Notes under the pieces: generated by a model
Database searches by the model: none
Told to the model about the DNA's origin: nothing
The model's input: the letters and a program-made list of their open reading frames with translations, nothing else
Shown: positions 11,304-56,777 of the stretch, in pieces
How the letters are laid out: every line of letters starts with the position of its first letter
How positions within the stretch are numbered: the first letter of the stretch is position 1
NCBI GenBank assembly: GCA_000091205.1
Contig: AP006498.2
Origin: Cyanidioschyzon merolae
Lineage: Eukaryota
Reading direction: 5' to 3' (one strand)
Length of the DNA stretch: 64,000 nt
Made by a program: the position numbers and the translations under genes

Positions 11304-12439
11304 GGAGTCCGTTCACACCCAGCGCTGGGTAGCTTAAGTCAACGAAGATTTGAATCACCTTTGCTGCGTGTATTCGAATGCTTATTCACAATGTACAGCT
11401 GGACGTTGAGATCATGATGGTATGCACTGTATCGATCATCGACGAATTGCCGCTAGGATGTATTCTCTGGTAAATAGTGAAAGGAGGTCTACATTCTGCT
11501 TCGGGTCAGGCATACAATAGTACTCAGATGGTTGAGTAACACAGAAAGAATCACGTAGATACGCTCCGTGCCGAAAACCGATTTGCTCGAAGCGCGCCTG
11601 CGGTTAATGGTATAAAAATGATCCGTTCATCATATTACGGAAAGCAAAAGCAACGATCCTAGCAACTACCAGTGTCTCTATTTCTCAATAGCTTGTTCGC
11701 GTTGTCCTGAAAACACTGGTATACAATCGCATAAAAAGTCCTGGTTCACAAACGGCAATCTTCCGCCGAAATCTCAACGACAGCGTCCTTGGAAAGTCAA
11801 TATCGATATGAAGCACAGAGACGACGATTTGTTTTTTCAGTTAATGAGAGCTTCTTCAGACGAAACGGCCGGAGTGCGGATGGGTAGTCGCGGAGCGTGG
11901 CGTCCGTTGTATGCGCTATCGAACTCTTAGAGAACGAGTATATCATCATCGGTCTAGCTGTAGTGGAATCATTTAGCGGCCTCCAATTCGCGTATACAGA
12001 AGGCTCATACAACAGCGTTGACTTCGTCGAATCAATAAAGGTGTTGTCTCTGACGTCTGGCCACGACCTTCTACTAGACAACGTGGTAGTTCACATTTCC
12101 CCTTGCGTCGAGCTTTTGACGATTCTAATTAGGTAGAGCTGCTTTTGACTCCTCCGTTCTCTCCGCGTTTCAACTGCATCGCAGGAATGTCTTCTATCGT
12201 GAAACGAAATGATCGCTCTAGTGGGCCAATCGATGATGCGTTCAGCACACAGTGAAACACCCGGGCACATGACGTTGTTCTTCCGCCAGTCCTTCATCCT
12301 CCGGGAAGGTCCTCGCTTAAGGGTATCAAGCAGCGCGTTCATTTTTTGAAGAAACTAAAAATCCCAGGGATGAGCTGGGGTTTACTCATCAGAAGATCGA
12401 GATGGAGAAAAGCCAGCGAAGCGCTCCGGCGATAGAAGA

Positions 12440-12812
12440 GCACGGGGAGCTGATCGAGCAGCAAATGGCACAGACGGCACAAGTTCGAGGACTACTTGCA
12501 TTGGTGGGTTCAACAACGGCAAGAAACGCATGGAGTTTGTGAACCGAGACTTTAACGCCGCTATCGATATCAGGAGATGTGCGGTGCTGGAGACGAGACC
12601 TCCAGAATAGACAAGAGTGAACTTTGTTGGACAGCCTCCAAAAATTGAACTATATGAGAAATAATTGGAACCAGTAGCTCGTGGCCGGTCGAAAATGGCT
12701 GGGAGGCGTCTGCACATCAGCTGGAGACGCTGTGTCTAGGGCGCGGTTTCTCGCCAATACTGTGCACGGCCAACGGCGACGTTCGACTTCTGAGGCGAGT
12801 TTGGTAGTGGTG
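12440..12812 (+). mobile_element. Solo 3'-terminal fragment (fragment D) of a TnpB/Fanzor-like element. It carries the RuvC-III motif, a C-terminal tail, and the conserved post-stop non-coding tail.
   Basis: It translates to GKKRMEFVNRDFNAAIDIRRCAVLETRPPE...AGRRLHISWRRCV*. The DNA is homologous to the 3' ends of copies A, B and C, including about 80 nt after the stop (gacgttcgacttctgaggcgagtttggtagtggtgg). Confidence 0.5.
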
Positions 12813-12817
12813 GTATT

Positions 12818-14614
12818 ATGTGGTGTTTCGTGACTGGACGGTGTGCTCCACTTTGGGGGGTTAACACAAACAGCACTTCGGTGACAGCTCGGTCTCGATG
12901 GAGGACGGCTGTCTGCGGCGGCCAGCAGCAGAGGTGCACAAGACGCACAAAGCTGGCATCGAGGCGTCCCTGCCGGGCTAGCGCTAGTGACCCGAACTTC
13001 TGGCGAGACGTGGCGCGCTCAGTGTCCGAGCAGGGCGAGCTGGCGACTTCGCGAGCTCCTGTGCGTCGAGAGCGACCTCCTCCGCAATGGGTGGCGCCGC
13101 CGCCCGGCTTTGAACTCGATACGAGCGGCGAAAGCAGTTCGACTTGGGCTTCATGGCGCGCGGCGGCAGAGGCAGCGCAAGCCGAGCAAGAGGCGGTGCA
13201 AGAGCGGCTTGAGCGTGGCGAACCTGTGCGTGATATGACCGCTGAACGAAACTTCTGGCGGAGCGCAGCGGCTGAACTAGGCGCACCGTTGGACCCCGGC
13301 AGAACGGCAGCCGAGCTACGCACTGCAGCAGGCGGGTTGGCGGAGCGTCCTTCGGAGCATAATCGCAGCGAAGAGATTGGGAGCATCGATTCGAACATTC
13401 CTGAATCGGATGAGGAGTGGGACCCCGACACCTCCTGGATGCAAATGTATGCGTCAGACGCTGTTGAATTCGTTTCGGGAACCGAATCTGCTGATGATAA
13501 TCTTCAAGGGACACTTTGGGGCGCCGCTCTGGGATCCGAGCAAGCAGCACGCGAACGTTCATCCACATCCTTGCAGTCGTTATCCGCAGAATGGGACACG
13601 AAGGAGCGCATTCCTGATTCCGGGGCAGAAGCTGCAGACGAGGAGGAAACCTTGGAGCCGCGCGATCCGAAGAAGGAGACAGCATTCTGGCGGGGTGCGG
13701 CCCAGGAGCTGCTTGGGGCATCCACGGGAGCTACGTCGGATGCGTTCGCGACTCGCTCGACCACGTCGCACAGCGCAGACGGGAGTGCCACGCAGGACTC
13801 CGAAGAGGAAACCTGGGAGCCGCGCGATCCGAAGAAGGAGACAGCATTCTGGCGGGGTGCGGCCCAGGAGCTGCTTGGGGCATCCACGGGAGCTACGTCG
13901 GATGCGTTCGCGACTCGCTCGACCACGTCGCACAGCGCAGACGGGAGTGCCACGCAGGACTCCGAAGAGGAAACCTGGGAGCCGCGCGATCCGAAGAAGG
14001 AGACAGCATTCTGGCGGGGTGCGGCCCAGGAGCTGCTTGGGGCATCCACGGGAGCTACGTCGGATGCGTTCGCGACTCGCTCGACCACGTCGCACAGCGC
14101 AGACGGGAGTGCCACGCAGGACTCCGAAGAGGAAACCTGGGAGCCGCGCGATCCGAAGAAGGAGACAGCATTCTGGCGGGGTGCGGCTCAAGACATCATC
14201 GAGAGCCTTCCGACACAAATCGAACTCGGTGTGGATGCACAGTCAAGCGCCAGCACTCCCGCCGTTCCCGATGCGCATGCCGGAACTGGTGATCCCGACG
14301 TTACAGCCGAAGAGCCCGTAGGCCCAGCTGAAGCCTGGGCTGCCTGGCGTGCCGCCCGAGCTTCTTCTAAGAACGTGTCCGCTTTACCCGCTCCTGTGGC
14401 TGAGACGCACCCAGAACCTCTTTCTGAAACAGAGATCTGGATTCAGTGGCGAGAACAGCAAAGAAAAACCTGGGCAGGAGCCCTCAACGACCTGAACCGT
14501 AACCGTCCGCGAGAACAGCAAGTTGCGCGACCCGAGAAAAGCACCGTTGATCGCTGGCGCCATGTTGCCGCAGAACTATCACAAGACAGCCCACAAAGCG
14601 AGGAGAACTCATAA
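12818..14614 (+). CDS. Hypothetical acidic, Trp-motif repeat protein containing a perfect 159-bp (53-aa) tandem repeat
   Basis: 598-aa ORF. A recurring xFWRxAAxEL motif occurs at least 8 times (NFWRDVARSV, NFWRSAAAEL, TAFWRGAAQELLG x4, EAWAAWRAARA, EIWIQWREQQRK). The block EETWEPRDPKKETAFWRGAAQELLGASTGATSDAFATRSTTSHSADGSATQDS is repeated about 3.5 times at 100% nucleotide identity. The large antisense and alternative-frame ORFs here are by-products of the repeat. Confidence 0.4.
   Translation: MWCFVTGRCAPLWGVNTNSTSVTARSRWRTAVCGGQQQRCTRRTKLASRRPCRASASDPNFWRDVARSVSEQGELATSRAPVRRERPPPQWVAPPPGFELDTSGESSSTWASWRAAAEAAQAEQEAVQERLERGEPVRDMTAERNFWRSAAAELGAPLDPGRTAAELRTAAGGLAERPSEHNRSEEIGSIDSNIPESDEEWDPDTSWMQMYASDAVEFVSGTESADDNLQGTLWGAALGSEQAARERSSTSLQSLSAEWDTKERIPDSGAEAADEEETLEPRDPKKETAFWRGAAQELLGASTGATSDAFATRSTTSHSADGSATQDSEEETWEPRDPKKETAFWRGAAQELLGASTGATSDAFATRSTTSHSADGSATQDSEEETWEPRDPKKETAFWRGAAQELLGASTGATSDAFATRSTTSHSADGSATQDSEEETWEPRDPKKETAFWRGAAQDIIESLPTQIELGVDAQSSASTPAVPDAHAGTGDPDVTAEEPVGPAEAWAAWRAARASSKNVSALPAPVAETHPEPLSETEIWIQWREQQRKTWAGALNDLNRNRPREQQVARPEKSTVDRWRHVAAELSQDSPQSEENS
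13640..14190 (+). repeat. Tandem repeat, 159-bp unit x about 3.5, perfect copies, inside the coding region of the 12818-14614 ORF
   Basis: The unit beginning aaacctgggagccgcgcgatccgaagaaggagacagcattctggcggggtgcggcccaggagctgcttgg recurs at about 13651, 13810, 13969 and 14128. Confidence 0.85.
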
Positions 14615-18229: not shown

Positions 18230-19043
18230 GCGCAGTTTTCCGCTATTGAAACCCCGGAGTACGCTTTAGACGAAACAGGCTTGAGAAATTGAGTTTCCAC
18301 TCGCAATGCGTACAGCGCAGTCCAGATCAGGCTTTCCTACTGGGCAGCTGCCTGGCACTATACATGCAGCAGGAAGCTATGCCAAAAACGTTCTATGAGG
18401 CTACTTTCCGCGCTGGCGCGGTGTCGAGGCGGTGTCCAGCTGTCCGTAATATTCCTAGTTGTACTGTTTTCATCGGAGCCGCTGCTTGGCCTGAGCCACG
18501 CTAATGTCAGAAAAATCGTACACCGACTATTCACTATGTTCCTAACTTTCATATTTTCCAGCTTTTTCGGAGTTGAAGACTATCAACATTCCAAGTGCAG
18601 CATCCAAGACTTGCCCACTCAAGCGTCGTTTCGGGTTTTCGGTCGTCTTTTCCGAGTGGTTGCCTCGAAGCTTCGCCGCTAGTATTCAAGACAACACCGG
18701 AATCAAGTTGATCCGCCATGCCCACGGTCAAGGTTTCTTAGAATTACAGGACCCATAACCCAATATATACATGCATGCTTCCAATTCTCTCCTTTTCTAA
18801 CGTGCAGCATGCTCAAAGCACGCGTTCTCCGAGTTTTCGATCTTTCTTTCTCAAGTTGAACGGTGAAGACACCAACTCGTGTCGCTTGATGTATAAGCGA
18901 AATGAATCGACATTGTCCCTTGACGCTCTGTTCACAAGCACATCCAAAAAGTTAATTCAAATTATTTTCTCAAACAATCAATTCCGTTCGAAAGAAACAT
19001 CCTTCTTCCGACGTGGGTATCGACGTAATCGCATTCCACAAAA

Positions 19044-19843
19044 GTATGATTTCTCACATGGGATTTGCTCCCAGAGGCTCACGTCTCTTCTCTGGGGATC
19101 GAGCAGGTTCTTGGACTCGGACTTGAGCCATCGCAGCGATCGCTTCCTGCGGGGCGTGTATCACCGTTTTGCCCGATGAGAGTGTAGACGCAACGAAATT
19201 TCTCGGCGTGTGTTTGAGCCTCGATTCTCTGCAAGGTAATAGGTTCATCAAGGAAAAGCTGACGTTTCACATATCCTCGATCCAATAGAGCCGCCTGCGT
19301 TTGGGCGTGCAACGGACAATGTACTCGCCGAGCGCATCGCCCAGAAGAGGCGGATGCTCGTATGGTACTGCACCGAGCACCAAGACGGGGGCGCGCATCA
19401 AGCGATGCCTTCTGCACTCGTCCAGAGCATGAACCAAGCGATGAAGCAGGCGTCAACGCGCCATAGAGCAGCCTTCCGCGGCGGCGAGTTGATGCACGTG
19501 CTTGAAAACATGACCGAAGTGATGTGCCACCGCCGTAAAGGGTGTACCGAGGTTGCGCGCGAAGGAGATCCGAATGGTAAGCGGAGCTTAGATGATACCC
19601 TGCGCCTTTTGCATGGAAAGCGTTGACGAAGCCTGAACCAGCGTAGCAGGCACGATCTTGGTGCCATCAACATCTGTCGAGTGATGGTGACGAAGCTGGA
19701 GGAGCAGGCGAGACCAGTGGATTCTACGTGGGAAACGAGTTAGAAAAAACCCTGCAAATGCTATTGTGGATAATGGGTTACAGAGAGCGAAACTTTAGAA
19801 TGTACGCCCTTGCTGGATGGCCCGTTCCATTTGATGCTGACAT
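19044..19843 (+). repeat. Dispersed ~0.8-kb repeat, copy 1. It is about 99% identical to 32907-33700.
   Basis: By-eye alignment. Homology starts at atgatttctcacatgggatttgctccc and ends at ggcccgt(t/a)ccatttgatgc. Only about 8 substitutions or indels were seen. Both copies are in the same orientation. No TIR or TSD is evident. Confidence 0.8.
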
Positions 19844-22295
19844 AGGTGTAAGCTGGGGCGCGCGCTCCATCACGCCTCGCGTGCTTCCCGCTCGACGTGA
19901 CGGCATCGTTAGTGCTGGACTTGTTCTTCAAGTCTTGAGTACCGTATGCGCTTCAGTCGCTGCATTAGTGGAACAGTGCGGTTCTTTCCGCTAATCTGAA
20001 ACTGCTACGTATGCGGTCCCAGTTTGACGACTTGTTCCCGAGGTATGAGCGGAACCCTCGTCATGCACGTAACTCGATTCGAATTATCAAAAGTTTTGGA
20101 ATTTCTTTTCGACAAATCCGAAAAGGGTCATCGTATTGACACCATATAAAATGCTACGTGTTTCCATTGTGAAAGCGGCGGTCTGGGCTCCATCTTGTTC
20201 GTATCCTTTCACACTGTCACCGGCAGCTGCTGCCGATTGGCGCTCTCTAGAAAAGGCGGCCGTCGTGGCAGCAGGGTAGAGCACACTTGTGTCGTCGGCA
20301 AGGCTGGTTGCACCGGTTCCCGATTATGAGGAATTTGGCGCCGTCCATCATCCGTAGGTAATCTCCTGAATGCGTCCCAGGAAATCCGCGGGAGCGGCAC
20401 CCGCGGGAACGCATTCGGTTCTCGCACCAGAATCCCGAGGTCATCGCTGCATACAAGGATCGCACAAAATGGTAATGACGCACTGATTTTTCGGTCTTCA
20501 CCTGCTGCTTTTCTGTGGACCGGCTCTTAAGCGCGCCGTGGAGATTTTTCACGAGAAAAGAGGGCAACCCTGCGTCGTGCATGGCATCCGGGGCTGACTT
20601 TTGTCCTTGGTGGAAGGCATTTTTAAACATTCTCGCTATCGCTACTCGCAGGGTGTAACGATAGAAGGCTTGCGTGTTGCAGCTTTACTGTCGGACTCGA
20701 TTTCTCCCAGAGCCTCGTTCGAAACGAGATATTGTGCTCGGTGCCCGCAGGCGATGCGGAAAAAGGGCCTCACTGGGCACTTGCACTGGCACGCTTCCCA
20801 GCAGGGCGCAACGCTCGGCATTGTACGAGCACCGGTATTTAGGATCGGTCACAACAGAGGTTGCTGCGATGTCTCGCAAGTGACCTGAACACCATAGTGC
20901 CTCGCCTTTTCTCTAGGTTGGCTACAGAAGAAGAATGACTCGCTAAGATCATCGAGCAGCTGCCAGCCCAAAGGTTACCCTACGATCTGTTGCCTGCTTA
21001 CATTGCCTATGATCAGCGAATACGAAGAATTGAGTTTTCGGGGCTCGTCGCAGCTCTCGGTCCCGCATTCTCATGCATGGGCCTGGATCAGCAGCTCTTC
21101 AGATGAATGGATCGCGACGCGGTCGCGTCCTCTACCAGAAATCAGGCAATACTGATCGATCAGCGGACCCCAGCGAGCGCTCTGTGGATCGGTTAGTCAG
21201 ACAGACTCACTGGTCGATTGTGTCGCGCGATGCTGCTCGCGATTCGTGCGGGTCATCACGCATCGCGAGTGCGTGCAGCTCCATGAAAGGCGAACTCTCC
21301 GCCAGGCTTCTAGAATGTATATAGAAACAGAACGCCCGTCTAACCGCTATCGTGACCAGGGTGTATTCCAGATCTCACCACGTAGAGGTGCTCTGACATT
21401 TGGTACGCCATGTACATGACATGCATTGAAAACTACCGTATTGCAACTTGCCAGCTACCTGTGCAAAGCTGTATGTGTATCCGTTGATCGCACTGGCACG
21501 AGGTATCCGACCTCGTCCGTATCGACGACACGCCAATGCTGCCGATCTTCAGCAAAGGGACGACAGCTCCTCCATAGACGCTTCCGGGTCTCATGGTACC
21601 TATCACCTCAAACTTGCACGCAGCAGACACCATATCTAGCGGTACGTCGCGCCCTGAGTCTATAACGGGTCCCAGTGCTTTTGTCATGCTGTGTCGATGA
21701 GTTTATCCAATGCCCCCAGACGCGCGAATATGATTACAGAACATAATATAGCGCACAGTCTCTCCAAACACGATTACGTACGCGGACACACACACACATA
21801 GAAGATTCACCAACTCCTGCGCATCGTGCCTGTCGTGAATATAGAGCCTACACAAATCCAGAGTGGCTGCATCCCTCGTGGGCGATGGAGACGCCTGCAG
21901 CGTCGCCTGCCTATGCTTCTACAGAAAAACGAGACAATCCTGTCCCAGGTGCGGCACGCGCGATCCCGACGGGATCGCAGCGCTCCGTGCCTCGCGAACC
22001 CTTGACTGCAGCAGCAGCAGCAGCAGGTGGCTGGCAGAGCGGGACATGCGCACGGACGCCGTCCATGCGTGAGCTCCCGACGGCGCGCGCTCCTCGGATC
22101 GCTCGGATCCGCAAGCGGCATGTGTGCTGCACCTGAGGCAGGCACGCAGATTGCCTGCCGTTTTGGGATTGCAGCTCGAGGTTTGTCGCTTAGCAGCACG
22201 ACGAACCGCAAGTCTTATCGTTGTGCACTATAGTACACAGCTAGAAACTTTAGCTTCAGGAGTAGTACTGGTGTTGAGTAGTTAAGGCACTGGCA

Positions 22296-23117
22296 ATGGT
22301 TTTTGTGAACGTCAACGCCGCGTCACTGCAAACAGGTCGCTTTCTGGGTCGCGCCCTGCATCGTCGCCGCTTTTGCGAAGCGCGATCGCGCTCACCGCTC
22401 GGAACGCTTATGGTAATGCCGCCTGTTTCGAGGCGGGCGTTTTTAGCTGCTTTTGCTGCTGGCGTTACTGGGATTGTCTTGGCACGGGCTTCACCGAGCT
22501 GGGCTGACGGTGCTGTCTCGCGGGCAACTCGAGAACGCGCCCGTGGCCAGTACGGTCCACGGGTGCTTGCGACGCAGGCTATTATAGACAGGATAGAGCA
22601 GGCGGCGAACGCTGGGAACCTGGAACTCGTCGCGGCTCTGACTGCAAACCCGAAGAAAATATCAAAAAAGGAACGGAAAGAACTGGAGTCTCTGGACGGT
22701 TTTGGGGCGCTCTACGCGGAGCGGAACGCGTTCTTGCTTCTGAAAGGTGCAGTTCGGGGCGACCGAGTACGAGAGCCTGAGATGGATCGTGTTGTTGATC
22801 GGCTTTTCGCCACTGCAGACGAGATCTACCAGGCAGCGCGGATTGGAAACCGGGATAAGGTGATCCGAAGCGCGAGGAACTTGCCGCTCTACTTGAACTC
22901 TGTGATAACGGTTGCAGAAGTGAACCCTCGCGGCCCGGACGCTGCTCCAGGACAGGCATTCAGCAGCGATTTCGACTGGAGACGTGGTCGGGTTGCGATG
23001 CACTTAGAGGAGTCCGCCGCCAAGGGCTCGTCTGAGATGGCAGCGCAACCGGTGGTGTCGAAACCGTCTGCGCCTGCGCCTGCGCCTGCGCCAGAAGTAT
23101 CCGCCGTCGGATCATGA
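22296..23117 (+). CDS. Hypothetical protein with a twin-arginine (Tat)-type signal after an N-terminal transit-like region; putative thylakoid-lumen/organellar protein
   Basis: SRRAFLAAFAAGVTGIVLARASPSWA matches the consensus S/T-R-R-x-F-L followed by a hydrophobic core and an AxA cleavage site. It is preceded by a basic, S/R-rich presequence. The mature part is predicted helical. The C-terminus is (AP)n. Confidence 0.4.
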   Translation: MVFVNVNAASLQTGRFLGRALHRRRFCEARSRSPLGTLMVMPPVSRRAFLAAFAAGVTGIVLARASPSWADGAVSRATRERARGQYGPRVLATQAIIDRIEQAANAGNLELVAALTANPKKISKKERKELESLDGFGALYAERNAFLLLKGAVRGDRVREPEMDRVVDRLFATADEIYQAARIGNRDKVIRSARNLPLYLNSVITVAEVNPRGPDAAPGQAFSSDFDWRRGRVAMHLEESAAKGSSEMAAQPVVSKPSAPAPAPAPEVSAVGS

Positions 23118-23771
23118 GCACCAGGGGTAGCGCATACACAACAGAAGAGCGCGTTTGACAGGTTCGCGGTTTCAACTGGAGTGAAACGTTAGCATAAATA
23201 ATTCATCGCTGTTGGAAAGCTCTCTGTGTTGGGGTTTATATATCCCATCAGTTTCAGGACGAATCGCGCTCTAAAGCGAATGATTCCAGACGTTGCATGC
23301 TCCTCAAGTGAACTTGTCATCAAAACTCGAGGCTTGCATCGAGCACAATGCTTGTCTCTTTTGTAGAAACACACACTGAAGCGTCGAAGAGCGCACGCTT
23401 CATCGTCACCAGAAAAACCGGTACTATCAGGCGTCGCGAACGCAAACTTCCCGTCCGTTCCAAACTGGTCTGCACCACCGTTCGAGGATTCCAGAGCATC
23501 GCGCCTTCAGCCCTGCGAAGAGTTCATGACTTGCGACCCGCATCACATCCTGGACGGGTACAATGGGCCTCCATTCGAGAAACCCTCCACATCGATTCGA
23601 AACATCAGGGCTTGTGTGTGCGCCATATTACAACCTGTTCCTTCTCTTGATCTGCATGTCCATGCTTTTGGGTGTCCGTGCAACGCTCGCCGGCTGCCGC
23701 CGTAATGCTATCCAGATTCACAAACAAAACTATGTAAATCAAACCAAAATCTCCAACCAAAGCGCGGATGC

Positions 23772-24737
23772 TCATCTCACGTATGCCAGGGCCTCAGTCG
23801 CACTGTGCGCGCCTGAATGCTGCAGCAGCGGCAGCAGCCGTTGCCCGGCAAAGTCGGAAACGAGACACTCCACGAAGAGTGGCCGGTTCGTCGGAGGCAT
23901 CTGTTGTGCATCCTGATCAGAAGAAACCCTAGTAGACTGTGGACGCAACTGCTTCAAATACTGGACCGTGCGCGCAAAGTCCGCTGCGCCCCCATCCGGT
24001 AAATCATCACGATCGACGCTTGTGAGAACAACGTCGTCAATATCCCAACTCGCAACCTCTGCAGCCACATTCATGGGCTCCTCAGGATCTGGTGGTCCTG
24101 GTCGAGCTGCAGTTTTCACAGCACAGAATCGGCATCCTCGAGTGCAAGTATCTCCGAGCAGCACGATGGTAGCGGCGGCGTGCTCCCCGTTCCAACATTC
24201 CCCAATATTGGGGCATTGGGCCTCCTCGCAAACTGTGGACAGTTTTCTCGCTCGGAGACTCTCCCGCAGACGAAGAAAGCGTGAGTCCGGACGGAGTGCT
24301 GCAACAGCAGGCACTCGAAACCATTCTGGGCGATTCGCTGGTTGTGGCGCTCCCACCCGAGGGTACGCGGTACCACCACTGTCCGCGTGTGCAGGAGAGC
24401 GCTCGCATGGCGTGGCACGCGCTACTGGCACAGTACGCCGCTTCAAGCCCCGATTTGGTGCAGTCCGGCTTGGCTGTGGCAGGGCATTACGAAAGCGGGA
24501 AGACACGAACCATGTGGATTTCGAAGCTGTCGCTGTGCGATATCGCCAGGTTTGGGCGAGAAAGCCGAGGCACGCCTCTCGAGGCTCTGCGTTCAACGTT
24601 CCGCTCAGCGCTACCTGGGCAGACTGACGGTCGGGGTCGACTCGAACCACGTTCGATGGTGCTTCTATCTGCAAACGTGCCGCTTCGACGCAACCAGACC
24701 TAAGCGGTAGCGGCTCGTCGGGCGAGGTGCCCACCAC
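23772..24737 (-). CDS. LIAS: Lipoyl synthase (radical SAM), N-terminal two-thirds intact. The ORF ends prematurely; see findings.
   Basis: PEWFRVP, the auxiliary-cluster motif [13 protein letters not shown], and the radical-SAM motif [23 protein letters not shown] is conserved. The ORF stops at ...ALAYVR* about 120 aa before the expected C-terminus. Confidence 0.7.
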
Positions 24738-25012
24738 GACACCCCCAAGTCTTTGACCTCGCTGGTACGAGCGGCTCGAGCCGGTTCAACTGTTCGCCCC
24801 CTAGAGCCCAGACGCCACTAACAGTTCGGCTCCTGGTGGTAAAAGATTGCTTGACTTTGCTGAGCCCCGAACAGCACTGTATCTCCCAACAGCGCAGTAG
24901 ATAGCTCGCATAAGAACGGGTATGTGTCGTTGGAGCGCAAGTGCGTCCAAGGTTTCATTTGGTGTCCGGTTCGCCATCGTCGCACCTGCGCTGCAGTACT
25001 CTGGCGCTTGCA

Positions 25013-25245
25013 GTGCATTTGAAAACGGTACATTGAGCATTGGAGTTGCCCTAGATCAGTGCACTCTTGGGCACAGAGCAGGGACACGCTTCGACTGCGG
25101 CTCGTGTTCCATGTGGATGCAGCGCATTTGAAAACGGTACATTGAACACTGGAGTTGCCCTAGATCAGTGCACTCTTGGGCACAGAGCAGGGACACGCTT
25201 CGACTGCGGCTCGTGTTCCATGTGGATGCAGTGCATTTGAAAACG
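25013..25245 (+). repeat. Tandem repeat, 111-bp unit x about 2.1, intergenic (upstream of the lipoyl synthase gene)
   Basis: The unit gcatttgaaaacggtacattga(g/a)ca(t/c)tggagttgccctagatcagtgcactcttgggcacagagcagggacacgcttcgactgcggctcgtgttccatgtggatgcag starts at 25013 and 25124. A truncated third start is at 25235. Confidence 0.85.
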
Positions 25246-26034
25246 TTTCCAATGTATTCTCGAGCGGCGGAGCTCGTCGTGTTGGGATCGTTCCCAACGG
25301 CTCGGGGCTCGATGCAGTCGTTGGAAAGCGTGACGTTCGTGCACGCGTCCGCACCGAAACTGAAAATAGGGATGACCTAAACGAAAATTGACGCTCTCTC
25401 ATGTAATCCAAATTCGGAGCTGAATTCAAAGACCAGAACCGAATGCTTCTGAACCAGCAGCTACAGGGCATTGGAGGAAACGCACATTCGAGCGACGCAC
25501 AAGAACCCCGGACACAACCCCGTTCGCCGCGATCCACGTATGATCCGTACCCCAGTTCGAACGGATGCCCTATGTGGTACGGCAACGCCGTTCTGTCTCC
25601 GTGACGCAACTGTACCGAAGGTAAAGACGCTATTGCGGATGACTAGGGCAGGCATTAGGTGTGCGATAGAACGCATGAAACGACCAGAAAATCCGAGAAG
25701 AAGTTTCGGTAATGTGACTTGGGAGTAGGGTGTTTGATGGATACTTCAAAGCGCACTGAAAAACAAATAAAAAAGAAAGAAAAGAAAAAGCGCACAGTCG
25801 GAGAACGCTGGCCTAAGTAAACGTCTTGTCAATGAAAAAAGAATCCCGCTCGGTGAGCGCATCAGGGAGATCGGGCAGTCAACTGACAAGACGCGCATGT
25901 CGCCGTTGAAGAGAAAAGCGATCCTGATCAGGTGCGTGTTCTACCGGAACAAGTTGGATTTCCGTTGGAGTTTTACAAAAAAGCAGTTTTTCATTTCATT
26001 TGTGCTTCAAACCTCAAACAAGTCTAGTCCAGAG

Positions 26035-28370
26035 TTTTTTCGCAGTATATAACAAAAGCGTTCGAAGAGCGTTCTTTTTCGAAAAAATAAAAAGGAAAGC
26101 TATGAAAAGCAAGTCGACGATCCTGGAAGCCCAGTTTCGCCGGCTGCCAGAAAAAAAACAGAAAAACAGTGCCAAGTCCAGAAGAAAAGGAAGAGAAGAA
26201 GAACCGAAAGGGGGATACCCTACGTCGAAGGCCGCAAGAAAGGCAACTGCACGACGAGAAGGCGGTGAAAGCCTTTCTTCTTGGACATATCAAGGATCCC
26301 TGCAGGGAAAAGTTGCGAGACGCTATCGGAAAACTTGTCGACTCGTACTCCAAGAGTATTGTCAAGGCGTCGTCAGGACCGATGCATTTGGCCAGGGAGA
26401 CGTATCGCGACGTGACGCACATGGAAACAGTCGAGATGCCGGACGAGTCGTTCGACATGACCCTTATTCGATACCTGATGCTTGGTACAGAAAAAGCGCA
26501 GAAGGAAAATGAGCTTGTGCATGCCCTCAACGAAAACTTCGCGGAATTCTGCTTCGAGGGTACCAGAGACGGGGGTGACTCGGATATTTACGACTATGGG
26601 GCGATGAAGTACCTCACGAATCTGAAGAACCGTTTGACAACGAACCTCGAACGTTTCATGACACGCGCAGTGTTTGCACTCTACCCGGGCCAATCTCGCA
26701 ATGGAAAATGGACGATTATCAGTGGCATCACGAGAGATCGCAAGCGTGAAGATGAGGTCGAATTTGTCGATAAGAAGGCATCTAATGAGAGCACAAATGA
26801 AGCTTCTGTAATCCGTGCGGTTATACAAGAGCACCGCGCAGTTTTGGGCTGGCGAATCCAGCAGACAAGCTATCAGAGTTGAAAAAAGATACGGAGACAT
26901 ACTATCGCCTCATCCTGCGCGATTTCGTGTTTTTGGATCGAGAATTCGAACGCAAGGCGGAGATGAAGCTGAGCGAGGAAAAAATGAAGAGTGGGAGAGA
27001 CGGAAGGCTTTCCTAATGGGGAAGCGCTTCAACATGGTTCCAGTGTGCAACATCAAGTCACATTTTGTGACTATCGACTCCAGCGTCCTTCATGGCATCA
27101 TGAGGGAGATCAGTCCGGAGTTCAATGTTAGCAGGGAGGACTTCAACGGTGAAAACCGGGAGACGTACTGGAAGAATATCTTCGACTTCAAGCGTCTCAA
27201 AGCCAGCAAGCAAAAGGTATTCACTGAGATGATCGAAACCAATGGAGTAGACATGTGTATACACTATCGGCGGTTGAAGAGAGATCGTCCAGTCCTGCCC
27301 TCAGCGAAGCATGAAGATGAGAAGGGGGCGGATCCTGCGACGCAGGAAGTGCAGGATAACGACTTCGTCGCTGGCGCGGACTCCGGAAACACAAATATCA
27401 TAACCATCGCAGCACCGAAGCTTGCGGAAGATGGTGCTGACGGCAACTTACGTCAGAAAGACATGCGTCCTTTAAGGTTCTCGAGAGCGAGATACTATTG
27501 AGAATCTGGAATCATGAATGCGAGGAAGAAAACTGAGAAGTGGAATTCAGGAATGAAGGATCACCTGGAAGCTTTGAGCGAGGTGACGAGCCGAGGAGCA
27601 GACTTTGAAGCTTTTCGGGAGTTCATGGATGTTCGCGTTGCTCATTGGGATGCGCTGTAGGAGGAGTATACAAAGCCCCGGTCGCCTCGTTTGCGAATGA
27701 ATTCGTATTGTGGGAAGCAGCGGGCGTTCGCGAATTTTTCAATGAGTTGAGTGCCCTGAAGGAGGATGAAAATCAGAGGCTCGTAGTAGCGTACGGAGCA
27801 GGGCACTGGAAGACCCAAAAAGGGTGTACACCAGCTCCAACGACGAGAGCGTACAAGGAGTGCGCAAGGCGTCTCGTTACGATACCTGTAGATGAGTTCC
27901 GGACATCGTATACACACCATGAACTGGGTTGTACACTTCAGAGGGTGGAGATGGAAAAGTGCCAGCGGAGCCCCGAGGCTATAAAAAAGTACGGACCGCT
28001 CACAGAAGAGCAAATGGAAAGGAGAGCGAATGTTCGAGGGCCTGCTTGCATCAGTAAGTACAACCAGTGATGGTAAGAACCGGAAAGAGTTTGTGAACCG
28101 AGACTTTAACGCCGCTATGAATATAAGGAGATGTGCGGTGCTGGAGAACAGACCTCCAGAGTAGACAAGAGGGTATCTTGTTGGACAATCACTCAAGGTG
28201 GAACCATATGAGAAAAAGATGGAAGCAGTAGTAGGTGGCCGGTCCAAAAAGACTGGGAGGCGTCTGCACCTCGGTTGGAGACGTCTTGTCTAGGGCGGCT
28301 CGGTCGCCACTACTGTACACCGCTGCCGTCGTTCGACTTAGAACGGCGTTTGTTGTTGGTGTGTGTGTAA
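26035..28370 (+). mobile_element. TnpB/Fanzor-like (OMEGA-family RuvC nuclease) transposon relic, copy A
   Basis: The left boundary is defined by where homology to copy B begins (ttttttcgcagtata). The right boundary is where homology to copies B, C and D stops, just after gttggtgtgtgtg. It contains RuvC-I-like GADSGNTNIITIAAP, RuvC-II-like IPVDEFRTSYTHHELGC...C, and RuvC-III NRDFNAAMNIRRCAVLE. Confidence 0.6.
26102..28291 (+). pseudogene. Fanzor/TnpB-like nuclease gene of copy A, disrupted
   Basis: A K/R-rich NLS-like N-terminus comes first (MKSKS...KSRRKGREEE). The reading frame then changes at least 4 times (for example a +/-2 indel in the run gaggaaaaaatgaag). There are two in-frame stops relative to copy B (YY*ESG versus YYLESG, and DAL*EEY versus DALREEY). 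Confidence 0.6.
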
Positions 28371-31908: not shown

Positions 31909-32906
31909 TTTGGCGCACGAGTGATACCTGGGAATGAATCGACCCAGGTGGCTTCGAACGAGTTTCCTCTGGTCCGAAGAACCGTTCTCTAGTTTCTCAC
32001 GTGCCACAGTATCAGTCTTCAAGGAAAGTTTCGATTCAATCAAGGGGGCAAAGCGGCCTGGGATGCGTACTCCCGTAAAACGAGAAAAACAAGGTAGTCG
32101 CTCAGTTCTGTCTAGCAGGGAACGGAACGTTAAATCTATGCTCCTTTCGAGTAGAAGACTTTTGAGACGCGTCCCCTCCGTCCGCTACGTATAAGCGCTG
32201 AAAACTGGTATCGGACGTCCGTCGCGTACAGCCGATACGCAGGGACGCCTCTGGTTCCGGGCCTCTTGTTTTTAGGTAATCGACACCCAGAACGCGTTTC
32301 ACTTCCAGTGAGGTCCAATGCCAAAGACCCCGCGCCTTCCAACGGTACCCAAGTTTCACGAGCAACCTCGAAAGCGACACCCGTTCACAGCAACGATGGC
32401 GTGGCTGCGAACCGGCGGCGGTTTTTGGCAGAAGTAGCAGCTGCTGCTACTGCCGTCGCAGCTACCGAAAAAGCGTTCTGGGTGGCAAGCGACAATCGCG
32501 CTCTGCAGTGCACGGAGCTTCCAACACTAGAGCGCCTCTCGTCGTTGGCGAGTTTGCGTACTTCCAGCTGCCCGGTTCGCAAGTTGCAGCAGCAGAAGCA
32601 GTGACGTCAGCAAGCAACGCTAGGCGTGTCTGTGTCCAATGCGGCGAGCAGCGCCTGCTCGCAAGGCACCAGCACTTGTCGAGCGGAATACTCCAAAGGC
32701 GACGATAGAATGTGCTCGAAACAGGGAACACTGGGATGCTGGTTCTGTTCCTGCATGGAGATTTTCCAAACCTTATTTCAGGTCTAGAGCCTTGACATTC
32801 GAAGTGCAGCAGCAACAACGGCTTACGGATTCACACCTAGTCGTTGGATTATCTGTCATGATATCTGTATGGATATAAATGGAATGGCATTCGGCAGCAG
32901 CATGAT

Positions 32907-33700
32907 TTCTCACATGGGATTTGCTCCCAGAGGCTCACGTCTCTTCTCTGGGGATCGAGCAGGTTCTTGGACTCGGACTTGAGCCATCGCAGCGATCGTT
33001 TCCTGCGGGGGCGTGTATCACCGTTTTGCCCGATGAGAGTGTAGACGCAACGAAATTTCTCGGCGTGTGTTTGAGCCTCGATTCTCTGCAAGGTAATAGG
33101 TTCATCAAGGAAAAGCTGACGTTTCACAGATCCTCGATCCAATAGAGCCGCCTGCGTTTGGGCGTGCAACGGACAATGTACTCGCCGAGCGTATCGCCCA
33201 GAAGAGGCGGATGCTCGTATGGTACTGCACCGAGCACCAAGACGGGGGCGCGCATCAAGCGATGCCTTCTGCACTCGTCCAGAGCATGAACCAAGCGATG
33301 AAGCAGGCGTCAACGCGCCATAGAGCAGCCTTCCGCGGCGGCGAGTTGATGCACGTGCTTGAAAACATGACCGAAGTGATGTGCCACCGCCGTAGAGGGT
33401 GTACCGAGGTTGCGCGCGAAGGAGATCCGAATGGTAAGCGGAGCTTAGATGATACCCTGCGCCTTTTGCATGGAAAGCGTTGACGAAACCTGAGCCAGCG
33501 TAGCAGGCACGATCTTGGTGCCATCAACATCTGTCGAGTGATGGTGACGAAGCTGGAGGAGCAGGCGAGACCAGTGGATTCTACGTGGGAAACGAGTTAG
33601 AAAAAACCCTGCAAATGCTATTGTGGATAATGGGTTACAGAGAGCGAAACTTTAGAATGTACGCCCTTGCTGGATGGCCCGTACCATTTGATGCCGTCTT
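32907..33700 (+). repeat. Dispersed ~0.8-kb repeat, copy 2 (about 99% identical to 19044-19843)
   Basis: See copy 1. Identical spurious ORFs appear in both copies (19079-19456/32849-33313 on the minus strand and 19354-19626/33211-33483 on the plus strand). Confidence 0.8.
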
Positions 33701-54034: not shown

Positions 54035-54211
54035 TTTTTTGTGCACTGGAAGCATCCTGGAATACTTCATAAAGTCTCCGAGTATAATAAATCTCTGTCT
54101 CTGTAATTTGCGTGCGGGAAAAATGCACACACACCAACAACGCCGCTCTGAAGTCGAACGACGTCGGGCGTGTACAGTAGTAGCGGTGAACGCGCTCTAG
54201 GCTAGACATCC

Positions 54212-56777
54212 TCAACTGACGTGCAGACGCCTCCCAGTCTTTTTGGACCGGCCACCCACTACTGCCTCTATTATTTTCTCATATAGTTCGACTTTGAGAG
54301 GTTGTCCAACAAAGTCCTCTCGTGTCAGCTCTGGAGTCCTCGTCTCCAGCACCGCACATCTCCTGATATTGATAGCGGCATTAAAGTCTCGGTTCACAAA
54401 ATCGATACGTTTCTTGCCATCACTGGTTGTACATGCTGATGCAACTAGTCCTCGAACTTTCGCTCTCCTTTTCATTTGCTCTTCCGTCAGTGGTCCATAC
54501 TTTATTATATCTTCAGGGCTCCTCTAGCACTTTTGCATCTCCACTCTCTGAAGTGTACAACCCAGCTCATGGTGTGTATACGATGTTCGAAACTCATCTA
54601 CAGGTATTGTAACAAAACGCTGTGCACACACTCCTTGTACGTTCTTGTCGTTGGAGCTGGCGTAGTCCCTTTTTGTATCTTCCAGCGCCCTGCTCCGTAC
54701 GCTACCACGAGCCTTCGAGTCTTGTCCTCTTTGAGCGCACTCAAATGATTGAAAAGGTTGGAAAACGCCCGCTGCTTCCCACCGTATCGATTCATACGCA
54801 AACGAGCCCATCGGGGCTTGGTATACTCCTCCCGCAGCGCATCCCAATGAGCAACGCGATCATCCATGAATTTCCGAAAAGCCTGAAAGTCCGCTCCTCG
54901 GCTAGTCACCTCGCTCAAAGCTTCCAGGTGATCCTTTCTTCCTGCATTCCATGTTTCGATTTTCTTCCTCGCATTCATGGTTCCTGATTCCAGGTAGTAC
55001 TTCGCTCTCGAGAATCTCAAAAGACGCATGTCTTTCTGACGTAAGTTACCGTCAGTGCCATCTTCAGCACGCTTCGGTGCTGCGATGGTGATGATATTCG
55101 TATTCCCAGGGTCCACGCCAACGACAAGGTCGTTATCCTGCACTTTCTGCATCTCAAGACCCGCCTCCTTCTTTTCTTCATCCTTCACCGCGCCAATGAC
55201 GAGGTCGTGATCCTGCACCTCCTGCATCGCAGGACCCGCCTCCTTCTTTTCTTCATCCTTCACCGCGCCAATGACGAGGTCGTTATCCTGCACCTCCTGC
55301 ATCGCAGGACCCGCCTCCTTCTTTTCTTCATCCTTCACCGCGCCAATGACGAGGTCGTTATCCTGCACCTCCTGCATCGCAGGACCCGCCTTCTTCTTTT
55401 CTTCATCCTTCACCGCCCTAACGACAAAGTCTTCATCCTCCATCTCCTCCGTCTCAGGAACCGCCTCCTTTTCATCGTCATCCTTCGCCGCGTCAACCAT
55501 AAAGTCGTTATCCTGCAGTTTCTGCGTCGCAGCATCCGCCTCTTTGTTTTCTGCATCCTTCGTCACGGGCGCAGCCGAGTGAGGGACTGGCCGATCTTTC
55601 TTCAACCGCCGGTAGTGTACGCATAAGGCTACTCCATCGGTTTTGATCAACCCAGTGAATACCTTTTGTTCGCTGACTTTGACAGGTTTGAAATCGAAGA
55701 TACTCCTCCAGTACGTCACCCGGTTCTCGCCGGTGAAATCCTCCGTGCTAACTTTGAACTCCGGACTGATCTCCTCCATGATGCCATAAAGGACGCTGGG
55801 GTCGATACTAACAAAATGTGACTTGATGTTGCACAACGGAACGACGTTGAAGCGCTTCCCCTTTAGGACAGCCTTCCTTTTCTCCCACTCTAAATTTTCC
55901 CTCTTCAGCCTCATCTCCGCTTTGCGTTCGAGTTCTCGGTCCAGAAACACGAAATACAGCAGAATAAGGCGATAGCATCTTTCCTTATCTTTTTTTCAAC
56001 TCTGATATCTTGTCTGCTGGATTCGCCAGCCCCAAGATTGCACGGTGCGCTTCTATAACCGCACGGATGACGGAATCCTCATTTGTGCTCCTGCGTGAGG
56101 CCTTCTTGTTGACAAATTCGACCTCATCTTCACGCTTGCGATCTTTCGTGATGCCATTGATAATCGCCCATATCCCCTTGCAAAAGATGCCCGGATACAG
56201 CGCAAACACGGCACGTCTCATGAAACGTTCGAGGTCCACTGTCAAATGGTTCTGCAGATTCGTGAGATGCTTCATCGCTCCGCATGTGTAGATATCCCGG
56301 TCACCCTTGTTTCGAGTGCCCTCGAAACTGTAAAAGGGTTGTTTCTCGTGGAAGGCATGTACTAGCTCATTTTCCTTTTGCGTTTCATCTGTACCAAGCA
56401 TCAGGTGATGAGTAAAGACTTATCGAAAAACCCGTCAGGGTACCTCGACCGTTTCCATGTGCGTAACTTCGTGGTACATCTCCCTCGCCAAATGCATTAG
56501 TCCTGACGACGCCTTGACAATACTCTTGGAGTACGAGCCGACACGTTTTTCGATAATGTCTCGCAACTTTCCCCTGTAGGGATCCTTGATATATCCAAGA
56601 AGACAGGTTTTCACCACAACCTCGTAGTGCGGTCGTCTTTCTTGCCGCCTTCTACGTAGGGCCTCCCATTTTTGCTTCTTTTTCTCTTCCTTTTCTTATG
56701 AACTCGGCACCGTCTTTTGTTTTTTTTTTAGCAACCGCCGACCCTGGACCTCCAGGATCGTGGACTTGCTTTTTCAT
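54212..56777 (-). pseudogene. Fanzor/TnpB-like nuclease gene of copy B, disrupted
   Basis: Relative to copy A there are in-frame stops (MGGPT*; VEVP*RVFR*), a +1 insertion in a poly-A tract (ttgaaaaaaagata versus ttgaaaaaagata in A), and frame changes near 54540 and 54480. It also contains an expanded 75-bp (25-aa) tandem repeat (DNDLVIGAVKDEEKKEAGPAMQEVQ x about 4.5) that is absent from copy A. Confidence 0.6.
55130..55470 (-). repeat. Tandem repeat, 75-bp unit x about 4.5, inside the copy-B Fanzor-like ORF
   Basis: The unit gccaatgacgaggtcgttatcctgcacctcctgcatcgcaggacccgcctccttcttttcttcatccttcaccgc is repeated on the plus strand. Copy A has a single unit at the same position. Confidence 0.8.

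What the first reader, a model, noticed from the sequence alone, without database searches (positions are those of the whole stretch)
23400..24737. Lipoyl synthase gene with a pristine N-terminal two-thirds but a broken C-terminal third
Residues 1-321 match lipoyl synthase cleanly, including both Fe-S cysteine motifs. The ORF then ends at …ALAYVR* (stop at 23772), where homologues continue for about 120 more residues. Immediately downstream, only out-of-frame degenerate remnants are visible, for example …ALMFRIDVEGFSNGGPLYPSRM* in another frame, which resembles the …GFRYVASGPMVRSSY C-terminus. The last ~60 residues before the stop are already divergent: they carry a 16-aa insertion and a shortened SGLDVFAHNIETVEEL-equivalent. 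The stop overlaps a GTGAGA sequence that could be a 5' splice donor. The possibilities are a young pseudogene (with a functional paralog elsewhere), small introns in the 3' part of an otherwise intron-poor gene, or assembly errors.
Basis: partly seen in the sequence, partly recalled or inferred. Interest (0 to 1): 0.5.

Follow-up and report, generated by a model that had tools for sequence, protein, structure and literature searches.

The report
Truncated duplicate of lipoyl synthase gene

Summary
The window is the terminal 64 kb of Cyanidioschyzon merolae 10D chromosome 16. Five ORFs match annotated 10D proteins exactly, and a telomere unit lies at 63992-64000.

**What is there.** The 321-aa ORF (23772-24737, minus strand) is real. 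Only codons 1-275 of the 431-codon lipoyl synthase are present, at 24668-23844. At least 726 nt of 5' flank are also duplicated. Homology to the intact gene (BAM82271.1, chromosome 17) stops abruptly at 23845-23840. Nothing matching residues 276-431 or the parent's 3' flank occurs anywhere in the 64 kb.

**Why it is not an assembly error.** Five metagenome contigs reproduce the same junction.

**Why it is dead.**
- The start codon is ATA in every copy that covers it.
- Y212, H230 and, in 10D, T165 are replaced; each is invariant in 112 of 112 homologues.
- The C-terminal RSSY motif is missing.

- The intron reading fails.
- The "degenerate C-terminal remnants" do not align.
- The "insertion" is also present in the functional gene.

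GenBank already annotates a 100-aa piece of the ORF as "similar to lipoic acid synthase" (BAM81930.1).

The only mildly interesting point is that the two copies share polymorphisms in blocks. That suggests gene conversion between them, or chimeric assemblies.

The parts
23844..24668 (-). LipA-derived coding segment. It holds codons 1-275 of the 431-codon lipoyl synthase gene, with the start codon mutated to ATA (24668-24666). Both Fe-S cysteine motifs are present.
   Evidence: tblastn with the intact protein P0001 matches residues 1-275 at 95.6% identity. The nucleotide alignment is 97% identical. ATA replaces ATG in all 5 truncated copies that cover the site.
24669..25394 (-). Duplicated 5' flank (leader and promoter region) shared with the intact chromosome-17 locus. 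The upstream limit is unresolved, because the longest intact-locus contig ends here.
   Evidence: blastn of L011 and L012 against the window: L012 1-273 matches 25394-25118, and L012 160-1458 matches 25122-23823.
25009..25245 (.). 109-bp tandem repeat, 2.2 copies, lying inside the duplicated 5' flank. Copy number differs between the two loci.
   Evidence: Tandem Repeats Finder; window self-blast; L012 lacks one unit.
23840..23845 (-). Breakpoint of the duplication. The window reads GCCGG-G-CAAC where the intact gene reads GCCGG-CAAC, that is, one extra G followed by 4 nt that may be microhomology. Beyond this point the sequences are unrelated.
   Evidence: Pairwise and multiple alignments. The junction is identical in all six truncated copies.
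23772..23843 (-). Read-through tail of the ORF: 23 codons ([23 protein letters not shown]) plus TGA, translated from non-LipA DNA.
   Evidence: The family alignment shows no correspondence with the family sequence after DFAG.
23772..24737 (-). It is a mechanical ORF that starts at a GTG, 23 codons upstream of the former start codon.
   Evidence: the ORF listing. This exact sequence is not in the protein collection.
23772..24074 (-). CDS annotated in GenBank as BAM81930.1 / XP_005537966.1, 'similar to lipoic acid synthase', 100 aa, starting at the first remaining in-frame ATG. It contains neither Fe-S motif.
   Evidence: Exact-sequence look-up.
23118..23839 (.). Unique spacer between the breakpoint and the stop codon of CMP346C. 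It shows no similarity to the intact LipA gene or its flanks, and none to the rest of the window.
   Evidence: blastn with word size 7; BLASTP of the alleged remnant peptide.
22296..23117 (+). Neighbouring gene CMP346C (BAM81929.1), convergent with the LipA fragment. It anchors the window to C. merolae 10D chromosome 16.
   Evidence: Exact look-up. The neighbour is conserved in the environmental contigs.
25843..28365 (.). Copy of an interspersed repeat, with a sharp left edge at 25843, lying 449 nt beyond the last demonstrated LipA-flank homology. It may be relevant to how the duplicate arose.
   Evidence: Window self-blast: 80-84% identity to 54126-57047 and 60634-61595. Edge alignment. Nozaki 2007 describes 253 copies of a 3.2-kb interspersed element (PMC1955436); equating the two is my inference.

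Best explanation
The locus is a non-processed, DNA-level, 3'-truncated duplicate of the C. merolae lipoyl synthase gene.

**What was copied.** A segment of at least 1.55 kb was copied from the ancestral locus on chromosome 17. It comprises at least 726 nt of 5' flank, including a 109-bp tandem repeat, plus the first 825 nt of the CDS. It now lies on chromosome 16, about 39 kb from the right telomere, between CMP346C and an interspersed repeat.

**Where it ends.** The copy ends after codon 275, at a junction with one extra G and a possible 4-nt microhomology (CAAC). The frame then runs 23 codons into unrelated DNA before reaching a stop.

**Why it cannot make lipoyl synthase.**
- It lacks 156 C-terminal residues. 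That is half of the radical-SAM barrel and includes the RSSY motif, whose serine is the fourth ligand of the auxiliary [4Fe-4S] cluster.
- Its ATG is now ATA.
- It carries substitutions at family-invariant residues: Y212D, H230D and, in 10D, T165A. M169V changes a further, near-invariant residue (109 of 112 homologues).

**Shown here:** the homology limits, the absence of the 3' part, the intact paralogue, the presence of the fragment in wild populations, and the lesions.

**Inferred:**
- the direction of the duplication, from synteny;
- a DNA-mediated mechanism, because the promoter flank is retained and there is no 3' end or poly(A);
- loss of function.

**Unresolved:** whether the copy was truncated when it formed or later by deletion.
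For: **Identity of the window**
- Exact matches to BAM81929-BAM81933, all on a 908,485-bp record, which is the length of chromosome 16.
- Telomere unit AATGGGGGG at 63992-64000.

**Truncation**
- tblastn with the intact protein covers residues 1-275 only, and nothing credible matches 276-431 anywhere in the 64 kb.
- blastn of the intact 3' third plus 3.4 kb and 10.9 kb of downstream flank finds nothing.
- TIGR00510 scores 153.9 bits over model positions 14-144 of 302, against a cut-off of 310. The intact protein P0131 scores 373 bits.

**Intact paralogue in the same strain**
- P0131 = BAM82271.1, on the 1,232,258-bp chromosome 17.

**The intact locus is ancestral**
- The order LipA, then a GT2 gene on the opposite strand, then Zip is shared with the contig of a related species, L003.

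**Not an artefact**
- Five metagenome contigs (L004, L005, L006, L015, L017; L016 is L004 again) share the junction and the ORF tail.

**Lesions**
- ATG to ATA, H230D and K261N are fixed in all truncated copies; Y212D is present in 5 of 6.
- T165, Y212 and H230 are invariant in 112 of 112 homologues.
- The RSSY serine is a cluster ligand (PMC12246082).
- The six fixed differences are one in the 5' leader and five in the CDS. Three of the five are non-synonymous, or four of six if near-fixed Y212D is counted.
- Across 967 columns, 30 sites are polymorphic among 6 truncated copies and 20 among 8 intact copies.
Against: - The reading frame is still open across all 275 codons in every copy, with no frameshift or stop.
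- The 5' flank, which may hold the promoter, is retained.
- GenBank annotates a 100-aa CDS here.

Transcription, or even a short product, therefore cannot be excluded. At only 0.6-3% divergence, an open frame is expected by chance and says little either way.

- I did not have 10D chromosome-17 DNA, only the protein. All DNA comparisons use environmental or Logan contigs of close relatives.
- The upstream boundary of the duplication is not defined.
Confidence: 0.9

Rival explanations
1. The gene is intact but interrupted by one or more spliceosomal introns. The donor would be GTGAGA at 23780-23775 or a GC donor at the break, and the C-terminal exons would lie downstream.
For: GTGAGA lies next to the stop codon. 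The sequence at the break, GG|GCAACG, loosely resembles a GC-type donor.
Against: - No sequence in the 64 kb encodes residues 276-431, on either strand, even at E <= 10 and against a 96%-identical query.
- The next gene, CMP346C, begins 727 nt downstream on the opposite strand.
- The intact paralogue has no intron at this position in genomic contigs.
- Only 0.5% of C. merolae genes contain introns.
- The start codon is lost.
Confidence: 0.01
2. The break is an assembly or scaffolding error in the reference sequence, such as a chimeric join or a collapsed repeat.
For: The segment is a 97% duplicate of another locus and lies in a repeat-rich distal region. Metagenome assemblers often break contigs inside it.
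Against: - Five metagenome contigs (L004, L005, L006, L015, L017) cross the junction with identical sequence and the same flanking genes. They come from at least four samples, and L015 belongs to a 57.7-kb contig.
- The reference is a finished telomere-to-telomere sequence.
- The truncated copies carry fixed differences of their own.
Confidence: 0.01
3. The fragment is retained because it does something. It could encode a short protein (the annotated 100-aa CDS, or a product from a non-ATG start carrying the auxiliary-cluster domain), or a regulatory or antisense RNA acting on the real LipA.
For: - It is annotated as a CDS.
- The ORF and its tail are conserved in all six population copies.
- The 5' flank is retained.
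- Its sequence is kept close to that of the parent gene.
Against: - Conservation at this low divergence is expected without any selection.
- The fixed changes hit the start codon and invariant residues.
- The 100-aa product contains neither Fe-S motif and has no complete domain.
- The truncated copies are more polymorphic than the intact ones.
Confidence: 0.06
4. A full-length second copy was first made on chromosome 16 and later lost its 3' third through a deletion or rearrangement. The alternative is that it was truncated at birth.
For: Nothing argues against this directly. The region holds several repeats that could mediate rearrangement.
Against: - No trace of the 3' third or of the parent's downstream flank remains on the far side of the break.
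- The junction looks like a simple end-joining or template-switch scar: one extra G plus CAAC.

This rival differs from the best explanation only in history, not in what the locus is now.
Confidence: 0.2

Closest known systems
C. merolae 10D lipoyl synthase, 'probable lipoic acid synthase, mitochondrial precursor' (BAM82271.1 / XP_005538307.1, chromosome 17)
   Same: - It is the parent gene.
- 262 of the first 275 residues are identical (13 differences).
- It has the same N-terminal extension and the same 19-residue lineage-specific insertion.
- Its 5' flank is about 97% identical in intact-locus contigs of close relatives.
   Different: - It is full length, 431 aa, with an ATG start and the RSSY motif.
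- It has all the invariant residues.
- It passes TIGR00510 at 373 bits.
- Its neighbours are different: GT2, a fatty-acid desaturase and Zip.
GenBank CDS BAM81930.1 / XP_005537966.1, 'similar to lipoic acid synthase' (C. merolae 10D, chromosome 16)
   Same: It is this very locus. The 100-aa product equals window 23772-24074 on the minus strand.
   Different: The annotation records only the part after the first surviving ATG and treats it as a protein-coding gene. As far as the name shows, it does not record that the locus is a 3'-truncated duplicate with 198 further LipA codons and a mutated start codon upstream.
Duplicated (non-processed) gene-fragment pseudogenes in distal chromosome regions, as catalogued in yeasts (PMC2876123; seen only in a search listing)
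   Same: - A DNA-level partial copy of a functional gene, with its flanking non-coding DNA.
- It lies in the distal part of a chromosome arm, among repeats.
- It carries disabling lesions.
   Different: - It occurs in one of the most streamlined free-living eukaryotic genomes: 4,775 genes and 0.7% transposons.
- It lies outside the subtelomeric homology element (up to 20 kb) described for end 16R.
Gene/pseudogene pairs that exchange sequence by interlocus gene conversion (for example human CYP21A2/CYP21A1P; from my own knowledge, not checked here)
   Same: There are 15 polymorphisms shared between the paralogues in blocks, against 6 fixed differences. One 'intact' contig (L011) carries the T165A/M169V haplotype of the truncated copy.
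   Different: All of this evidence comes from short-read metagenome assemblies, which can themselves be chimeric between 97%-identical paralogues. It has not been demonstrated in a single clone.

Membership tests
Lipoyl synthase (LipA/LIAS; TIGR00510, radical SAM) | N-terminal CX4CX5C motif that binds the auxiliary [4Fe-4S] cluster | tested here: met
   [12 protein letters not shown] is present in the ORF.
Lipoyl synthase (LipA/LIAS; TIGR00510, radical SAM) | CX3CX2C radical-SAM cluster motif | tested here: met
   CTRGCRFC is present. Pfam Radical_SAM matches, but only profile positions 3-65 of 166.
Lipoyl synthase (LipA/LIAS; TIGR00510, radical SAM) | C-terminal RSSY motif, whose serine is the fourth ligand of the auxiliary cluster and whose arginine contacts the substrate | tested here: not met
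   The motif lies in the missing residues 276-431 (VRSSY in P0131). It is not encoded anywhere in the window. Its role is taken from PMC12246082.
Lipoyl synthase (LipA/LIAS; TIGR00510, radical SAM) | Full-length match above the curated family cut-off | tested here: not met
   TIGR00510 scores 153.9 bits against a cut-off of 310.25, covering model positions 14-144 of 302. The intact paralogue scores 373 bits.
Lipoyl synthase (LipA/LIAS; TIGR00510, radical SAM) | Family-invariant core residues (T165, Y212 and H230 in P0131 numbering) | tested here: not met
   The window copy has A, D and D. Each position is invariant in 112 of 112 homologues.
Duplicated (non-processed) pseudogene or gene fragment | High similarity to a functional parent gene in the same genome | tested here: met
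   BAM82271.1 is on chromosome 17 of the same strain. 262 of 275 residues are identical, and DNA identity to intact-locus contigs is about 97%.
Duplicated (non-processed) pseudogene or gene fragment | Copy includes non-coding flank and shows no sign of retroposition (no poly(A); not 5'-truncated) | tested here: met
   At least 726 nt of 5' flank, including a tandem repeat, are co-duplicated. It is the 3' end that is missing. Because the parent gene has no introns, intron retention cannot be used as a test.
Duplicated (non-processed) pseudogene or gene fragment | Disabling lesions | tested here: met
   Loss of 156 codons, ATG changed to ATA, and replacement of invariant residues.
Duplicated (non-processed) pseudogene or gene fragment | Relaxed selective constraint relative to the parent | tested here: inconclusive
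   Three of the 5 fixed CDS differences are non-synonymous (4 of 6 with near-fixed Y212D). Polymorphic sites number 30 among 6 truncated copies and 20 among 8 intact copies. The numbers are small and confounded by exchange between the copies.
Duplicated (non-processed) pseudogene or gene fragment | No functional product (not translated or not required) | not testable with these tools
   No expression data were available. The locus is annotated as a CDS in GenBank.
Intron-containing gene (spliceosomal) | Downstream exons that complete the reading frame | tested here: not met
   No match to residues 276-431 anywhere in the 64 kb.

The most novel reading that the evidence does not exclude
The truncated chromosome-16 copy and the functional chromosome-17 gene may actively exchange sequence by interlocus gene conversion in wild Cyanidioschyzon populations. 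The evidence is 15 polymorphisms shared in blocks against 6 fixed differences.

Under this reading, the pseudogene occasionally donates damaging alleles to the essential gene, for example T165A/M169V at invariant or near-invariant positions, as seen in the 'intact' contig L011. That would be a natural read-out of ectopic homologous recombination in an alga usually regarded as clonal and genomically minimal.
Probability: 0.3. Interest if true: 0.35.

Novelty: already known. Interest (0 to 1): 0.12.

Why it matters
It matters little. The analysis settles that the 'broken' lipoyl synthase is a gene fragment, not an unusual split or intron-bearing gene.

C. merolae is not missing lipoyl synthase, because the intact gene is on chromosome 17.

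There are three practical consequences:
- The GenBank entry BAM81930.1 ('similar to lipoic acid synthase', 100 aa) would be better labelled as a pseudogene fragment.
- Read mapping and metagenome assembly across LipA in Cyanidioschyzon will be confounded by this 97% duplicate. Many environmental contigs break inside it.
- The gene/pseudogene pair could serve as a small natural marker for ectopic recombination in this model alga.

Tried and rejected
1. **Searching for the missing C-terminus in the window.**
   - Queries were E. coli LipA, the 96%-identical intact protein, and the intact gene's DNA with its flanks.
   - Only chance-level hits appeared. One was a hit at 5308-5487, in a large ORF I did not identify; another at 52706-53017 was likewise unidentified.
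It gave no alignment.
3. **Fetching the 10D chromosome-17 locus by exact protein look-up.** P0131 is not on record in the contig index. I used environmental and Logan contigs of close relatives instead.
4. **Defining the upstream end of the duplication.**
   - I fetched more intact-locus contigs (P0124, P0129, P0125, P0128). The longest, L012, gives only 613 nt upstream of the ATG and is homologous to the window right up to its end.
   - The boundary therefore lies at or beyond 25394 and remains open.
5. **Testing whether the upstream neighbour in a related species (EF1-gamma in L003) left a fragment here.** It did not.
6. **Checking whether the LipA fragment is part of the adjacent interspersed repeat.**
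   - The repeat edge is sharp at 25843.
   - Other copies of the repeat carry no LipA sequence.
7. **RNA genes.** There are no tRNA or Rfam matches in the window.
8. **Bacterial promoter and terminator scan.** It is uninformative for a eukaryote.
9. **Literature searches.** Searches for the locus tags and for C. merolae pseudogenes found nothing specific.
Full report
**1. The observation**

The minus strand of the window carries a 321-aa ORF at 23772-24737. It ends ...ALAYVR, followed by TGA at 23774-23772.
- It contains the two cysteine motifs of lipoyl synthase, [12 protein letters not shown] and CTRGCRFC.
- It aligns with E. coli LipA residues 37-175 at E = 5.7e-29.

Several details in the finding are not, as set out below.

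**2. Where the window comes from**

- The neighbouring ORF 22296-23117 (+) is identical to C. merolae 10D protein CMP346C (BAM81929.1).
- Four more ORFs in the window are identical to BAM81930-BAM81933, all on a 908,485-bp record. That is the published length of chromosome 16 (PMC1955436).
- The last nine bases of the window are AATGGGGGG, the C. merolae telomere unit.

The window is therefore the terminal 64 kb of the right arm of chromosome 16. The LipA-like ORF lies about 39 kb from the telomere, among ordinary housekeeping genes. Those genes include a class-I tRNA synthetase, an RsmB/NOP2-type methyltransferase, ELP4 and a 4-alpha-glucanotransferase.

**3. What the ORF is homologous to, and where homology stops**

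The best database hit is a 431-aa lipoyl synthase, P0001, at 96% identity. Its 90% cluster contains the annotated C. merolae 10D enzyme BAM82271.1, 'probable lipoic acid synthase, mitochondrial precursor'. That protein is on a 1,232,258-bp record, which matches chromosome 17.

- tblastn of the intact protein against the window matches residues 1-275 only, at 24668-23844. Nothing credible matches residues 276-431 anywhere in the 64 kb, on either strand.
- At the DNA level, intact-locus contigs align at about 97% identity from at least 25394 down to 23845. These are Logan contigs L001 and L002 and JGI contigs L011 and L012. The aligned stretch includes at least 726 nt of 5' flank with a 109-bp tandem repeat at 25009-25245.
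- Homology ends abruptly after the DFAG codons. The intact gene reads GCCGG-CAAC-ACTGATG...; the window reads GCCGG-G-CAAC-GGCTGCT....
- A word-7 blastn of the intact 3' third, plus 3.4 kb and 10.9 kb of its downstream flank, finds nothing in the window.
- The 727 nt between the break and the stop of CMP346C match nothing in the intact loci.

The last 23 residues of the ORF are therefore translated from unrelated DNA. They are not a degenerate version of the SGLDV... segment.

**4.

- The '16-aa insertion' is a 19-residue insertion at positions 245-263. It is a gap in more than 90% of 112 homologues but is present in the intact, functional C. merolae gene, so it is a lineage feature and not decay.
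- The alleged out-of-frame remnant (...ALMFRIDVEGFSNGGPLYPSRM) gives no BLASTP alignment to the true 156-residue C-terminus even at E <= 100.
- GTGAGA (23780-23775) lies next to the stop codon and does not overlap it.
- On the curated lipA model TIGR00510 the ORF covers positions 14-144 of 302 and scores 153.9 bits against a cut-off of 310. The intact protein scores 373 bits. Less than half of the conserved core survives, although 275 of 431 residues is about two-thirds of the protein's length.

**5. Not an assembly error, and not introns**

Metagenome contigs are collinear with the window at 98-99% identity.
- They are L004 (the same contig as L016), L005, L006, L015 (part of a 57.7-kb contig) and L017, and together come from at least four samples.
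- They carry exactly the same junction, the same 23-codon tail and the same stop.
- Two samples each also yield a separate contig of the intact locus: L013 and L014 (the contig also held as L007). Both copies therefore coexist in wild populations.

The intron idea fails on three counts.
- The intact gene is a single continuous ORF in genomic contigs of up to 32 kb that cross the break position.
- Only 0.5% of C. merolae genes have introns.
- There are no downstream exons.

**6. Direction and mechanism**

At the intact locus, LipA is followed by a family-2 glycosyltransferase gene on the opposite strand, then a fatty-acid desaturase and a Zip transporter. The order LipA / GT2 / Zip recurs in the contig of a related species, L003, whose LipA is 66% identical. 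The chromosome-17 locus is therefore ancestral, and the chromosome-16 copy is derived. This is an inference from synteny.

Retention of 5' non-coding flank, together with loss of the 3' end, is the opposite of what a processed retrocopy looks like. That argues for a DNA-level partial duplication. The junction, one extra G plus a possible 4-nt microhomology, fits end joining or template switching; this too is inference.

A copy of an interspersed repeat begins sharply at 25843, 449 nt beyond the last demonstrated homology. It may be one of the 253 copies of a 3.2-kb element described by Nozaki et al.. Whether it played a part could not be tested, because no intact-locus contig extends far enough upstream.

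**7. Is it dead?**

Across 967 aligned columns there are six fixed differences between truncated and intact copies: 24693, 24666, 24508, 23981, 23904 and 23886.
- 24666 converts the start codon ATG to ATA in every truncated copy that covers it.
- 23981 gives H230D.
- 23886 gives K261N.
- Y212D (24035) is present in 5 of 6 truncated copies.

Compared with its own chromosome-17 paralogue, the 10D copy has 13 amino-acid differences in 275 residues, including T165A and M169V. In an alignment of 112 homologues, T165, Y212 and H230 are invariant and M169 is present in 109.

The missing part contains the RSSY motif. Its serine is the fourth ligand of the auxiliary [4Fe-4S] cluster, and its arginine contacts the substrate (PMC12246082).

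The frame is still open in all copies, but at this low divergence that is expected by chance. I conclude with about 0.9 confidence that this is a non-functional gene fragment.

**8. Already annotated**

The first remaining in-frame ATG gives a 100-aa ORF at 23772-24074. It is exactly GenBank BAM81930.1 / XP_005537966.1, 'similar to lipoic acid synthase'. The locus is thus already in the public annotation. As far as its name shows, it is labelled as a short CDS rather than a truncated duplicate. Full-text searches for the likely locus tags and for C. merolae pseudogenes found nothing further.

**9. The one mildly unusual point**

Fifteen polymorphic sites are shared between truncated and intact copies, in contiguous blocks. 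This compares with six fixed differences.
- The haplotype T86/C88/E115 of the 10D fragment occurs in 'intact' environmental contig L012 (P0125). P0123 carries T86/C88 but not E115.
- T165A/M169V occurs in 'intact' contig L011.

A duplication captures a single haplotype, so shared polymorphism implies later exchange between the loci, that is, gene conversion. The alternative is chimeric short-read assembly of 97%-identical paralogues. The many contigs that break inside the duplicated segment show that assemblers do struggle here, so I give the conversion reading about 0.3.

**10. Verdict**

This is an ordinary, already-annotated, 3'-truncated duplicate pseudogene of lipoyl synthase, with the functional parent on another chromosome. 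The intron and assembly-error options, and the claimed C-terminal remnants, are not supported. Interest is low.

Noticed in passing
window 63992-64000: The window ends exactly on one AATGGGGGG telomere unit, so it is the terminal 64 kb of C. merolae chromosome 16, end 16R. Nozaki 2007 reports that 16R shares a subtelomeric homology element 'H' with end 3L.
   Followed up: partly
window 19027-19837 and 32883-33694: An 812-bp direct repeat at 98.3% identity brackets a 13-kb block. The block contains CMP346C, the LipA fragment, an interspersed repeat, the RNA methyltransferase gene (BAM81931) and BAM81932. The repeat is also present in the environmental contigs L004, L015, L016 and L017. Its nature is unknown, and it gave no tRNA or Rfam match.
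   Followed up: partly
window 25843-28365; 54126-57047 (inverted); 60634-61602 (inverted); 12370-12767: Several copies of one interspersed repeat family, 77-84% identical to one another, with no Pfam match in their ORFs. They are probably the 253-copy, 3.2-kb element with a WSV486-like truncated ORF described for this genome. That equation is my inference and was not tested.
   Followed up: partly
window 21018-21085: A 68-nt stretch present in the 10D reference is absent from all four environmental contigs that cross it (L004, L005, L015, L017). The alignments overlap by 7 nt at the junction. It is an indel polymorphism in an intergenic region.
   Followed up: no
window 13639-14187 and 55113-55562: Two tandem repeat arrays: 162-bp units at over 99% identity inside the 598-aa ORF 12818-14614, and 75-bp units at 82-87% identity inside a copy of the interspersed repeat.
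   Followed up: no
window 22296-23117 (+), CMP346C: This 'hypothetical protein' has a borderline Pfam match to the photosystem II Psb31 family: 24.7 bits against a cut-off of 25, over residues 73-112. The precomputed tables flag the same family as faint.
   Followed up: no
L011 (JGI 3300053660, intact LipA locus), gene 470-1765: This full-length 431-aa LipA contig carries T165A and M169V, at positions that are invariant or nearly invariant in the family. It also carries the HPDDDG variant seen in the truncated copy L005. The cause is either pseudogene-to-gene conversion or a chimeric assembly.
   Followed up: partly
L007-L010, L013, L014 (intact locus) and L005, L006, L017 (truncated locus): Many metagenome contigs begin or end inside the duplicated 1.5-kb segment or at its 109-bp tandem repeat. 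This shows that the duplicate systematically fragments short-read assemblies of the LipA locus in Cyanidioschyzon populations.
   Followed up: yes
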